Source: Escherichia coli | GTDB taxonomy: Bacteria; Pseudomonadota; Gammaproteobacteria; Enterobacterales; Enterobacteriaceae | Assembly (NCBI RefSeq): GCF_003334405.1 | Contig: NZ_QOWM01000022.1 | Strand: one strand, 5' to 3' | Length of the DNA: 52,139 bases | In this document: one piece after another, positions 46,501-49,500 of the stretch | Position numbering within the stretch: position 1 is the first letter of the stretch | How the letters are laid out: each line of letters starts with the position of its first letter | Program-made: the position numbers

Positions 46501-49500
46501 CGGTGCGCGCCTGCGTGTACCCGGAGGCAAAGGGACGCGACTCGCAGATTCATCGCATGCCTCACGTATAATTGTGAAAGCCTCTTCTTCACTATATGAA
46601 TCTGACTCCCAGCGTAGCACTGCCCATACATCGTCCTCACGACGCCGCATTATAAGAATGCCATGCTTTCCGCTGTGACAATTACGTGTCAGTGCACAGA
46701 CTGTGACATGATCATGACTACCCCAAGCGCTAACTGGAGGATCATCCCCAAATCCCAGACCTCGGGGAAGCGATAAGGCATATACATCGAATACACAAGA
46801 CGGAATGGGAGTCATCGAAAAGTCTCACTTAATGAGCCTAAAGATAGCGGCAAGCAGACCATAAAAGACCGGTCCATAAGTAGGTACCTTCTGCATTCGT
46901 TAGCGATTTTTTGACTTTGCTAGCAGTCAAACCCAACAATTAACTCTTCAGTAATCTCACTTAAGGAGACTATGCCTTTATATCCAGTTTCAACGTATGG
47001 GACCACCCTATCACTCCATGCCTCTTCTGCTTTCCATGCAGTCCAGGGGATCAATTTATCGAATTTGCTTTCATGAAGAAATAGTATTGAAATTCTATCA
47101 TTAGGCACATGTTTTATAAACTGAGTTGGAAAACATTTATAGGCATGTTCTTCCCAATGCTTAGTCCCATAACATCTGTAGTCAAAAAAGGAAACACAGT
47201 TACGCCGTCTGAAAAAACCATTTGATGAGTTTCCAAATCTTGACATCTGCAATAATTCCGAGTTTGGGATCAAAGCGCCGGACTGTTTTATGAGAGACAT
47301 ATTATTTTCAGGCGTAACATGGAACACTCTTCCTAAAAGAGCAGGTAATATATCATTGTGAGATATGATTTTGAGTTGACTGACTTTCATATATCTTGAC
47401 CATCGAAATATGGATTAGTGCAATACGTTAACATAGCATAATGTCACTAGCGTCTCCTATTGGCACATAGCAGTCCTAGAGACACTGGCGTAAAGCCATG
47501 GAGGATCGGTGGGAGGAGGCGCTAATCCTTTCATACAAAAAATATGTAAAATCAATAACGGCTGTAAATCATTCAATACTCGCCCTATCGGAAGTTCACC
47601 AGCCAACCGCAGCACGTTCTTGCATACGACGTGGCTGCGGTTTCAACTCCCGCCAGCTCCACCAATCATGATTGGACGGTGTAAGGACAACACCAACAAA
47701 AACAGGAAGTTAGCAGTCTCAGCAGGACACCGACCAGACGGTGAGGAGACAAAAAAGGATACGCAAAGGAGCCGCGGCTCTCGAGTGACACAAAAGCCCG
47801 CTTATGCGGGCTTTTTGTTTTTCCCTTAAGTTCCTAGCCGCTTATCTATAACTATGGAAAAATGTTAACCCTGACTGTATGTTAACAAAGGGATGTATAT
47901 GTCGGTTTTTCATAACTGGCTGCTTGATATCGCAAGCGGGAATTACTTTATCTACATCAAACGCCTTTCTGCAAACGACACAGGCGCAACAGGTGGCCAT
48001 CAGGTCGGACTTTATATCCCCTCAAATATCGTTGAAAAGCTTTTTCCATCTATCAATCATACTCGCGAACTGAACCCTTCAGTCTTCCTTACTGCGCATG
48101 TATCATCCCATGATTGCCCTGATACCCAAGCACGCGCAATTTATTACAACAACCGTTATTTTGGTAAGACCCGAAACGAAAAAAGAATTACGCGCTGGGG
48201 GAGAGGAAGTCCATTACAGAACCCTGAAAATACAGGAGCCCTCACAATTCTTGCTTTCAGGTTAAACGAACAGAACACTGACTGTTCCGAGGTAGATATA
48301 TGGGTCTGCGTCAATCCCGATGAAGAGGATATCATCGAGTCTGCTATTGGCGAAATCATACCTGGAACCCTAATTTCCGGCCCTGCCGGACAAATTTTGG
48401 GCGGATTGTCTCTTCAGCAAACTCCAGTAAATCATAAATATGTTATTCCTGAAGACTGGAAGAAGCGTTTTCCTTCTGGAAACGAAATTATTCAATATGC
48501 TGCTGGCCATTATGCTAAAAACTCCAAGGATCCAGATGAGCAACTGATTGACCGTCGGCGTGTCGAGTATGATATTTTTCTACTCGTCGAGGAATTACAT
48601 GTTCTTGATATTATTAAGAAAGGATTCGATTCTGTAGATGAGTTTATTGCATTAGCCAACTCTGTCAGTAATCGACGTAAATCAAGGGCAGGCAAATCAC
48701 TTGAACTTCACCTAGAGAAGCTTTTTATCGAGCACGGACTACGGCATTTCTCCACTCAGGCAGTTACTGAAGGTAATAAAAAACCAGATTTCCTGTTTCC
48801 TTCAGCAGAGGCATATCATAACGTTGAATTTCCTGTAGAAAACTTACGTATGCTGGCAGTAAAGACCACCTGCAAAGATCGCTGGCGTCAGATACTGAAT
48901 GAAGCAGATAAAATCCATCAGGTACATTTATTTACACTGCAAGAAGGTGTTTCTTCAGCACAATACCGAGAAATGAAAGATGCGGGTGTCAGACTCGTTG
49001 TACCATCAACTTTACATAAAAAATACCCAGAAGCAGTTAGAGAAGAATTAATAACGCTCGGAGCATTCATTACTGAGCTGATAGAGCTTTACGCTGAACT
49101 ATCATAGGCTGACTCCCGGCTTAAAAGGCCGGGAGATGTTCTCAAGGCTGCCCAGTCTTACCAGCATCAGCAGAAACAGCTTTGAGGATATAGGGTTCCA
49201 GAAGTCTGGCAACAGCTTCAAATACTGGCACCACAACTGAGTTACCGAACTGCCGATATGACTGAGTATCTGAAACCGGAATACGGAATGGTTTCCCTCC
49301 AGGTTTTTCAAATCCCATAAGGCGTGCGCACTCTCGGGGAGTCAGCCTGCGTGGTCGACGAGCCTGATTACTCTCATTCATAAAGTCAGCCTCTCCCGTT
49401 GCCATATCCCAACCACGATCAATAAGAATTTCTGATCCGTCTTTGTGATATCTGGCAGAAAGTGTGCGTGCAATGCTTTCCTTATTCTCAGGATTGACCA

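What the first reader, a model, noticed from the sequence alone, without database searches (positions are those of the whole stretch)
47548..47822. tmRNA 3-prime-end-like sequence followed by a strong terminator: possible small RNA or second att relic
Immediately after copy 2 of the repeat is GCGGTTTCAACTCCCGCCAGCTCCACCA, one substitution away from the 3-prime terminus of E. coli ssrA as I recall it. About 130 bp further on is a textbook intrinsic terminator (47796..47822) on the same strand, just upstream of the restriction gene promoter region. This could be a relic attachment core from an ssrA-targeting element, implying a mosaic island, or a transcribed tRNA-like-ended small RNA. The 106-aa ORF called across this region looks spurious.
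Basis: partly seen in the sequence, partly recalled or inferred. Interest (0 to 1): 0.5.

Follow-up and report, generated by a model that had tools for sequence, protein, structure and literature searches.

The report
Orphaned phage attachment half-site copying ssrA's end
This is a leftover half of a phage attachment site: a phage-borne copy of the last 28 bases, trailer and terminator of the tmRNA gene, stranded inside a prophage that now integrates at a tRNA-Thr gene. It is an ordinary relic of module swapping between lambda-like phages.

Summary
Window 47637-47664 matches the 3' end of E. coli ssrA at 27 of 28 bases, and a strong intrinsic terminator lies 128 nt downstream.

The whole 189-nt block 47637-47825 is a copy of the ssrA 3' end, its trailer and its terminator.

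- It is 188/189 identical to the junction in strain SA186. There the same prophage cargo (EcoRII endonuclease, Dcm methylase, GIY-YIG protein, tail-fibre assembly gene) follows the genuine ssrA gene directly.
- It is about 91% identical to the native ssrA-to-ypjA spacer at an unoccupied site.
- Phage LLS carries the homologous block, annotated "tmRNA pseudogene / attP", next to an ssrA-type integrase.

The block is therefore the P' side of an ssrA-type attP. On integration this side rebuilds the tmRNA gene's end and supplies its terminator.

Here it is orphaned. The prophage is bounded by a thrW fragment. Close relatives of this locus carry a thrW-type integrase. The sequence to the left of GCGG is a widespread lambdoid 3'-UTR/terminator module, not ssrA and not the phage P arm.

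Decayed copies of the same fusion sit in prophages at other integration sites. There is no support for a tmRNA-like gene or a small RNA. This is a known kind of feature and of low interest.

The parts
45047..45092 (-). 46-nt 3' fragment of tRNA-Thr thrW. This is the attR boundary of the thrW-integrated prophage array, the counterpart of ptwF in K-12.
   Evidence: 100% match to thrW bases 31-76. The direct repeat with the thrW end of locus L001 is 64 nt at 95%.
47506..47640 (+). It is a conserved 3'-UTR-like sequence that ends in a terminator hairpin. It forms the left partner of the fusion and is neither ssrA nor the phage P arm.
   Evidence: 86% identical to lambda 24162-24296 (complement), between ea31 and ea47. 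Median 4 places per E. coli genome. More than 120 IMG/VR stretches. It usually starts about 10 nt after the stop codon of a dinI-like gene.
47605..47642 (+). Hairpin at the 3' end of that module. In its native form it is followed by a T-run, making an intrinsic terminator. Here the T-run is replaced by the ssrA T-loop sequence.
   Evidence: Folding energy -20 kcal/mol, z = -3.6. Six of 7 consensus pairs show compensatory changes across 80 copies. A native version with TTTTTCTTTTTT lies at window 51777-51822.
47637..47664 (+). Relic of the ssrA 3' end (T-arm, 3' acceptor strand, CCA). It corresponds to the common core of an ssrA-type attP. The join with the left module lies in GCGG, 47637-47641.
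   Evidence: 27/28 to real ssrA. The left limit of homology to the SA186 attL and to phage LLS is exactly 47637. LLS annotates the homologous bases as 'tmRNA pseudogene / attP'.
47665..47791 (+). Copy of the ssrA 3' trailer, part of the phage P' arm.
   Evidence: Identical to the sequence that follows genuine ssrA in SA186. About 91% identical to the native ssrA-ypjA spacer at an empty site.
47792..47825 (+). Rho-independent terminator, hairpin usable on both strands. It is the phage-borne counterpart of the ssrA terminator. Here it sits between the relic and the EcoRII-like gene.
   Evidence: Present at the same position at the native locus, in SA186 attL and attR, and in LLS.
47899..52139 (+). 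b-region cargo that travels with the relic: EcoRII-like endonuclease (47899-49107, +), Dcm-like methylase (49142-50575, -), GIY-YIG protein PD-T4-3 (50982-51755, +), and the end of a tail-fibre assembly gene (51825-52067, -).
   Evidence: Window 47637-52139 is 99.73% identical (12 mismatches in 4503) to the DNA that follows ssrA in SA186. PADLOC hit.

Best explanation
Window 47637-47825 is an orphaned half attachment site: the common core plus P' arm of the attP of a lambda-like phage family that integrates into the tmRNA gene ssrA (phage LLS, and the SA186 prophage).

In those phages the integrase crosses over inside the last ~29 bases of ssrA. The phage copy of the T-arm, acceptor strand and CCA, followed by a ~130-nt trailer and a terminator that resemble the host's own, then becomes the new 3' end of ssrA. 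tmRNA therefore stays intact in the lysogen.

In this window the same block is still attached to the same cargo (EcoRII/Dcm, GIY-YIG, tail-fibre assembly gene). On its left, however, it is joined at GCGG to the terminator hairpin of a common lambdoid 3'-UTR module. Beyond that lie two other genes and a thrW fragment.

The prophage thus belongs to a lineage in which the ssrA-type integration module (P arm, integrase, excisionase) was replaced by a thrW-type one. The core and P' arm were left behind as a fossil.

Shown: the homologies, the breakpoint, the different integrase in related loci, and the decay of sister copies.

Inferred:
- The join arose once. It came either from integrase-mediated recombination of attP with a look-alike secondary site (hairpin arm GCGG + TTT against ssrA GCGGGTT) in a co-resident or co-infecting lambdoid genome, or from microhomology-mediated illegitimate recombination.
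- Today the only likely activities of the block are transcription termination in front of the restriction gene and service as ~190 bp of homology for exchange with ssrA-type phages.
For: - Sequence: 27/28 to real ssrA. 188/189 identical to the SA186 junction, where genuine ssrA is followed by the same EcoRII, Dcm and GIY-YIG proteins (same or near-same RefSeq protein accessions). Identity continues at 99.73% for 4.5 kb.
- Native counterpart: at an unoccupied site ssrA is followed by trailer, terminator and ypjA, about 91% identical to the window's block. In 2528 of 5426 complete E. coli genomes ssrA is contiguous with this trailer. In K-12-like genomes the trailer sits at the far end of CP4-57.
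- Phage LLS: its order is integrase, gene 31, 'tmRNA pseudogene/attP', homologous trailer and terminator, b region, tail fibres. Its authors deduce integration into the ssrA 3' end through a 29-bp identity (PMC12315714).
- SA186 junctions: attL, attR and attB place the crossover inside CGGGTTCAACTCCCGCCAGCTCCACCAA.
- Not a live site here: a thrW fragment lies at 45047-45092. Loci 99.4-99.95% identical to the window end in a thrW-adjacent integrase. That integrase is only 25% identical over 162 aa to the SA186 ssrA-type integrase, whereas the SA186 and LLS integrases are 85% identical.
- Sibling phages: the E6474 (thrW) and SA186 (ssrA) prophages share gene content outside the integration module.
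- Fossil status: the same fusion occurs in prophages next to sitD, prfC, proL and thrW, at 80-97% identity. The ssrA-like bases and the terminator are progressively degraded.
Against: - No expression data are available, so transcription through the block cannot be excluded.
- The window itself stops inside the tail-fibre assembly gene. The absence of an ssrA-type integrase is therefore inferred from near-identical loci in other strains, not read from the source genome.
- The core is almost intact (perfect in locus L011 and in IMG/VR locus L034). Residual activity as a secondary site for ssrA-specific integrases is therefore not ruled out.
- The direction of the module swap (ssrA type to thrW type, or the reverse with later homologous exchange) is not resolved.
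Confidence: 0.85

Rival explanations
1. The block is still a working recombination site. It would act as a secondary attB ('landing pad') inside the prophage for ssrA-specific integrases (LLS/SA186 type or CP4-57 IntA type), or as a second attP of the prophage.
For: The 28-29 nt common core is nearly intact (27/28 here; 28/28 in L011 and L034). The whole P'/B' side is present. In K-12-like genomes the ssrA fragment at the far end of CP4-57 starts at the T-loop, which the relic retains.
Against: The left half of the site (P arm, or ssrA sequence upstream of GCGG) is replaced by unrelated sequence. No ssrA-type integrase is present in the related loci. No locus examined had an element inserted at the relic; the P4-like element in E6474 sits at the thrW fragment. 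Sister copies decay, which argues against selection.
Confidence: 0.08
2. A small RNA gene: a ~280-nt transcript running from the repeat, with a tRNA-like CCA-ended domain, to the terminator at 47822.
For: There is a strong terminator on the same strand. A near-invariant TAAAAT lies at the start of the upstream repeat. The upstream module is unusually well conserved.
Against: No -35 is conserved, and no + strand promoter-like site was found in 47300-47950. The repeat normally ends in its own terminator and is usually the 3' end of a dinI-like gene. ARAGORN and Rfam are negative. No 5' acceptor partner exists, and the G->T change weakens the T-stem, which folds at -4.5 kcal/mol with z = -1.3. 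The ssrA-like part and the terminator degrade in sister copies.
Confidence: 0.05
3. Host-derived DNA: a displaced ssrA fragment (attR of an ssrA island) carried to the thrW region by chromosomal rearrangement or aberrant excision, rather than a phage-borne P' arm.
For: The same trailer and terminator are native chromosomal sequence next to ypjA. In PSJ-23 the native trailer is missing from the ssrA neighbourhood.
Against: The block is 188/189 identical to the phage-side allele in SA186 attL, but only 89-92% identical to host-side alleles. It is contiguous with phage cargo at 99.7% identity. Free phage LLS carries the homologous block. Its orientation (trailer facing the tail-fibre side) is that of a P' arm, not of an attR.
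Confidence: 0.03

Closest known systems
attP of ssrA-integrating lambdoid phage LLS (GenBank PQ299149; Genome Res 2025, PMC12315714) and the ssrA-integrated prophage of E. coli SA186
   Same: The same core (ssrA 3' end), the same trailer and terminator, the same orientation relative to the b region and tail fibres. With SA186 the downstream cargo is also the same, at 99.7% identity.
   Different: Here the P arm, the adjacent small gene(s) and the ssrA-type integrase are missing. In their place is a lambdoid 3'-UTR/terminator module followed by two other genes and a thrW att fragment. One core base differs (47641).
tRNA/tmRNA gene fragments that mark island ends (Williams' tDNA framework; Islander database, PMC4383910)
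   Same: A copy of the 3' part of the target gene, carried by the element so that integration regenerates the gene. Such fragments persist as markers of past integration specificity.
   Different: This fragment marks neither end of the present island, whose ends are thrW and the thrW fragment. It is internal: a fossil of a previous integration module rather than a displaced fragment.
ptwF, the thrW pseudo-tRNA fragment at the end of CP4-6 in E. coli K-12 (from my own knowledge of the K-12 map)
   Same: A relic of an attachment target gene at the same chromosomal neighbourhood (yagP / pao side of the thrW hotspot).
   Different: ptwF corresponds to window 45047-45092 and is the true attR for thrW elements. 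The ssrA-like relic lies 2.5 kb inside and derives from a different target gene.
Mosaic boundary ('linker') sequences of lambdoid phages
   Same: Short conserved non-coding blocks are shared by otherwise different modules. The left partner of the fusion occurs in lambda, Qin and many prophages in front of different cargo genes.
   Different: The join itself is not a homologous exchange. The sequences on the two sides of GCGG have different origins.

Membership tests
Phage-borne regenerating fragment (core + P' arm) of an ssrA-type attP | Identity to the 3' end of the target gene from the crossover region to CCA | tested here: met
   27/28 to ssrA of PSJ-23. The crossover interval deduced from SA186 attL/attR/attB lies inside this run.
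Phage-borne regenerating fragment (core + P' arm) of an ssrA-type attP | Continuity with the phage-side flank seen at attL of integrated relatives and in free phage | tested here: met
   188/189 to SA186 attL and 99.73% over the next 4.5 kb. 91% to LLS attP and its flank.
Functional attP / attL of an ssrA-integrating element | Cognate tyrosine integrase and P arm adjacent (attP), or the intact 5' part of ssrA upstream (attL) | tested here: not met
   Upstream is lambda-b-region-like sequence, not ssrA and not the LLS/SA186 P arm. Related loci carry a thrW-type integrase only 25% identical to the ssrA type. The source genome beyond the window could not be read.
tmRNA gene | Full tRNA-like domain with 5' acceptor strand, pseudoknots and tag reading frame, detectable by ARAGORN or Rfam RF00023 | tested here: not met
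   ARAGORN finds 0 genes. RF00023 scores 9.5 bits against a gathering score of 47. Only 28 of 363 nt are present.
Rho-independent terminator | G+C-rich hairpin followed by a T-run, stable and conserved in position | tested here: met
   10-bp stem, loop of 4, TGTTTTT tail. Folding energy -19.8 kcal/mol, z = -6.35. Same position at the native ssrA locus, in SA186 and in LLS. Termination activity itself was not tested.
Independent small-RNA gene | Own promoter, discrete transcript, sequence or structure under selection | tested here: inconclusive
   No + strand promoter-like site, no Rfam family, and decay in sister copies. Transcript data are not available with these tools.

The most novel reading that the evidence does not exclude
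The orphan core plus P' arm is not inert. Its ~190 bp of near-identity to the ssrA locus and to ssrA-type phages, and its almost intact core, could serve as a recombination handle. This could work by RecA- or Red-mediated exchange, or by occasional integrase action. Through it, the attached defence cargo (EcoRII/Dcm, PD-T4-3) would shuttle between ssrA-integrating and thrW/prfC/proL-integrating lambdoid phages. That would explain why the window's copy is 188/189 identical to a working attL while older copies have decayed.
Probability: 0.2. Interest if true: 0.4.

Novelty: new member of a known kind. Interest (0 to 1): 0.2.

Why it matters
The value is mainly for annotation and interpretation.

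- The run should not be called a tmRNA fragment of host origin, a small RNA or a 106-aa protein.
- It dates a swap of integration modules between sibling lambdoid phages, ssrA-type against thrW-type. The break sits at the att core.
- ssrA-integrating lambdoid phages carry not only the last 28-29 bases of the gene but also a ~160-nt look-alike of its trailer and terminator.
- The region around it is a hotspot for defence cargo. The relic is a convenient marker for tracing how that cargo moves between prophages at different chromosomal sites.

Tried and rejected
- tmRNA or tRNA gene: ARAGORN found none. Rfam at gathering thresholds found only two IS009 hits elsewhere in the window. A permissive Rfam scan gave only terminator-driven noise and a 9.5-bit tmRNA hit.
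Rejected: the P arms of LLS and SA186 are unrelated to it, and the repeat occurs in lambda, Qin and many prophages with other specificities.
- The P4-like integrase next to the relic in strain E6474 as its cognate. Rejected: that element abuts the thrW fragment, and its orientation does not fit.
- The repeat as a remnant of a coding gene (RefSeq calls an 81-nt 'capsid protein' pseudogene on its - strand in E6474). Rejected: a 1-nt indel in the Qin copy, the covarying hairpin, and the position just after dinI-like stop codons all argue against it.
- The 53-codon ATG-started tail of the 106-aa ORF. It is cut short by stops in the native trailer and in LLS (read from the sequences), and has no PADLOC hit.
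- A sigma-70 promoter for the repeat. TAAAAT is near-invariant, but no -35 is conserved.
- Literature search for the repeat's sequence found no papers. Williams 2003, 'Traffic at the tmRNA gene', is not held in the library, so it is cited only from memory.

Full report
**Setting.** The window is E. coli chromosome: the ecp operon, ykgJ, yagU, paoABCD and a truncated yagP, followed by prophage DNA. Window 44001-51833 is 99.95% identical to strain PSJ-23. A 46-nt 3' fragment of tRNA-Thr thrW lies at 45047-45092 on the - strand. It marks the outer boundary (attR) of elements integrated at thrW. In PSJ-23 and in strain E6474, which is 99.4% identical to window 47428-52139, the other end of the prophage is a tyrosine integrase abutting thrW itself.

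**The observation.** GCGGTTTCAACTCCCGCCAGCTCCACCA is at 47637-47664.
- It matches the annotated ssrA of PSJ-23 at 27 of 28 bases, or 28 of 29 with the next base (E = 5e-8). The only change is G->T at 47641.
- The terminator has its stem at 47792-47815, with 10 pairs and a 4-nt loop, then TGTTTTT. Its folding energy is -19.8 kcal/mol, z = -6.35.

The similarity to the ssrA locus does not stop at CCA.
- I built a test query from the last 104 nt of ssrA plus window 47665-47825. It found a place covering at least 80% of it in 2528 of 5426 complete E. coli genomes.
- At an unoccupied site (strain SY3626) the order is smpB, ssrA, this trailer, this terminator, ypjA.
- In K-12-like genomes, and in strain AHM21C2872I, the trailer and terminator lie at the far end of the island inserted in ssrA, next to ypjA.
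- The 130-nt spacer and the terminator are therefore ssrA-locus sequence.

**Which allele.** Window 47637-47825 compares as follows:
- 188/189 identical to strain SA186, where genuine ssrA is followed directly by this trailer.
- 89-92% identical to host-side alleles (SY3626, SA186 attR, AHM21C2872I).
- 91% identical to phage LLS.

In SA186 the trailer is followed by the same EcoRII-like endonuclease and Dcm-like methylase (identical RefSeq proteins), the GIY-YIG protein, the tail-fibre assembly gene, tail fibre, lom and J. The identity to SA186 continues at 99.73% for 4503 nt and begins exactly at 47637.

**The phage side.** Free phage LLS has the order excisionase, integrase, gene 31, a feature annotated "tmRNA pseudogene / attP", the homologous trailer and terminator, b-region genes, tail fibres.
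- Its authors state that LLS holds a 29-bp identity to the ssrA 3' end, and should integrate there without destroying the gene (PMC12315714).
- The SA186 prophage ends in an integrase 85% identical to that of LLS. Two small genes follow, then an attR whose P arm is unrelated to anything in the window.
- Comparing SA186 attL, SA186 attR and the empty site places the crossover inside CGGGTTCAACTCCCGCCAGCTCCACCAA.
- The general principle is that islands carry a copy of the target's 3' part that regenerates the gene (PMC4383910).
- Window 47637-47825 is thus the common core plus the P' arm of this attP. After integration it becomes the 3' end, trailer and terminator of ssrA.

**Why it is orphaned here.**
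- To the left of 47637 there is neither ssrA nor that P arm.
- Window 47506-47640 is 86% identical to lambda 24162-24296 (complement), between ea31 and ea47.
- The same module stands at the left end of Qin in K-12, between ecpE and ykgJ (copy 1), and at a median of four places per E. coli genome.
- Further left are two genes on the - strand, one of them PD-T7-1-like, and then the thrW fragment.
- The thrW-adjacent integrase of the related loci shares only 25% identity over 162 residues with the ssrA-type integrase.
- The complete thrW prophage of E6474 and the ssrA prophage of SA186 otherwise share their gene content. This includes yfdP/Q/R, ymfK/T/L, the ash-family and PerC-family genes, an N6-adenine methylase, RusA, KilA-N, DUF968 and Q.
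- They are sibling phages that differ in the integration module.

**The left partner and the join.**
- In 80 distinct copies the left module has a near-invariant ~65-nt stretch, then a hairpin. Six of the hairpin's 7 consensus pairs show compensatory changes.
- The hairpin is normally followed by a T-run, so it is an intrinsic terminator. A clean example follows the GIY-YIG gene at window 51777-51822.
- Most often the module starts about 10 nt after the stop codon of a dinI-like gene.
- In the window the hairpin's 3' arm (...CTGCGG) runs straight into TTTCAACTCCC. The shared letters are GCGG plus TT.
Two sister copies (L011, L034) have G there, giving a perfect 28-mer.
- The break lies at the left edge of the att core identity block. 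That is compatible with integrase-mediated recombination between attP and a look-alike secondary site in another lambdoid genome. Cos-to-cos packaging of such a cointegrate would give exactly this hybrid.
- It is equally compatible with microhomology-mediated illegitimate recombination. I cannot separate the two; this step is inference.

**Fossil status.**
- The same fusion (module, core, trailer, terminator) occurs in prophages next to sitD at the Rac site, at prfC, at tRNA-Pro, and at thrW beside a retron.
- It occurs in about 10 of 121 IMG/VR matches, and in 529 of 5426 genomes at 80% or more coverage of 47530-47700.
- Identity to the window's block ranges from 97% down to 80%.
- The ssrA-like bases and the terminator stem are among the parts that degrade, for example TTCAACTTCACCAGTCCACCA and TTTTAACTCCACCAGTGCATGG. 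That is not the pattern of a selected RNA or a selected recombination site.

**Against a gene.**
- ARAGORN finds nothing. Rfam's tmRNA model gives 9.5 bits against a threshold of 47.
- No + strand promoter-like site is found.
- The isolated 28-mer folds weakly: -4.5 kcal/mol, z = -1.3.
- The 106-aa ORF is unannotated and has no defence-family hit. It is interrupted in homologues: a stop after 5 codons of its ATG-started tail in LLS, a stop after 28 codons at the native site, and indels in L005.

**Function now (inferred).** The terminator probably still stops + strand transcription before the EcoRII gene, and its hairpin can also act on the - strand. The ~190 bp of near-identity to ssrA-type phages offers a substrate for homologous exchange. 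That would account for the window's right-hand side being virtually identical to a working attL. Nothing suggests a role in trans-translation.

**Verdict.** The "att relic / mosaic island" reading is supported and sharpened. The "small RNA" reading is unsupported. This is a new instance of a well-known kind of feature, and its interest is low.

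Noticed in passing
window 47543-47642 and 37988-38085; also 51777-51822: The 'repeat' is a very widespread lambdoid-prophage module, present in lambda, Qin and more than 120 IMG/VR stretches, at a median of 4 places per E. coli genome. It has a near-invariant TAAAAT, about 65 nt of almost invariant sequence, and a hairpin with compensatory changes followed by a T-run. It usually begins about 10 nt after the stop codon of a dinI-like gene. It has no Rfam family and no paper holds its sequence. 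Why a 3'-UTR-like block is better conserved than its neighbouring genes is unexplained; it might be a 3'-UTR-derived sRNA or a recombination linker.
   Followed up: partly
window 37940-38700: The ecpE-ykgJ-yagU interval looks like an ancient lambdoid b-region remnant fixed in E. coli. It holds a degenerate dinI-like 3' end, the repeat (37988-38085), ykgJ as a moron-like gene, and then the Rfam 'IS009' hit at 38491-38690 (-). By eye, that hit translates to a tail-fibre-assembly C-terminal fragment. The second IS009 hit (51868-52066, -) lies inside the real tail-fibre assembly ORF 51825-52067.
   Followed up: partly
window 45397-51755: The stretch between the thrW fragment and the tail-fibre genes is packed with defence-type cargo: a PD-T7-1/PD-T7-5-like protein (45397-46815, -, E = 3e-69), an unassigned 156-aa protein (46920-47390, -), an EcoRII-like endonuclease, a Dcm-like methylase, and the GIY-YIG protein PD-T4-3 (50982-51755, E = 8e-140). 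At the same position other strains carry a retron Ec48 system (L011) or a P4-like satellite with a reverse transcriptase (L002).
   Followed up: partly
L015 22440-24198 (PSJ-23 ssrA locus): In the strain closest to the window, genuine ssrA is followed by a P4-type integrase remnant that brings its own terminator. An IS1 and glaH come next. The native trailer and ypjA are absent from the 49 kb read, so within the DNA read here the prophage relic is that strain's only copy of the ssrA trailer.
   Followed up: partly
L003 5085-5140 (Qin, K-12 lineage) and L014: The Qin-type copy of the repeat ends GCGGTTTTTCAACTATTCAGATACATCACTCCCAT. It may be a very decayed version of the same ssrA-core fusion (TTCAACT plus scattered matches) or only a chance resemblance. 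I could not decide between the two.
   Followed up: no
L002 15114-15194 (= window about 47541-47621, - strand): RefSeq annotates an 81-nt 'capsid protein' pseudogene fragment on the - strand of the repeat in strain E6474. Given the covarying hairpin and the indels among copies, this looks like an annotation artefact.
   Followed up: partly
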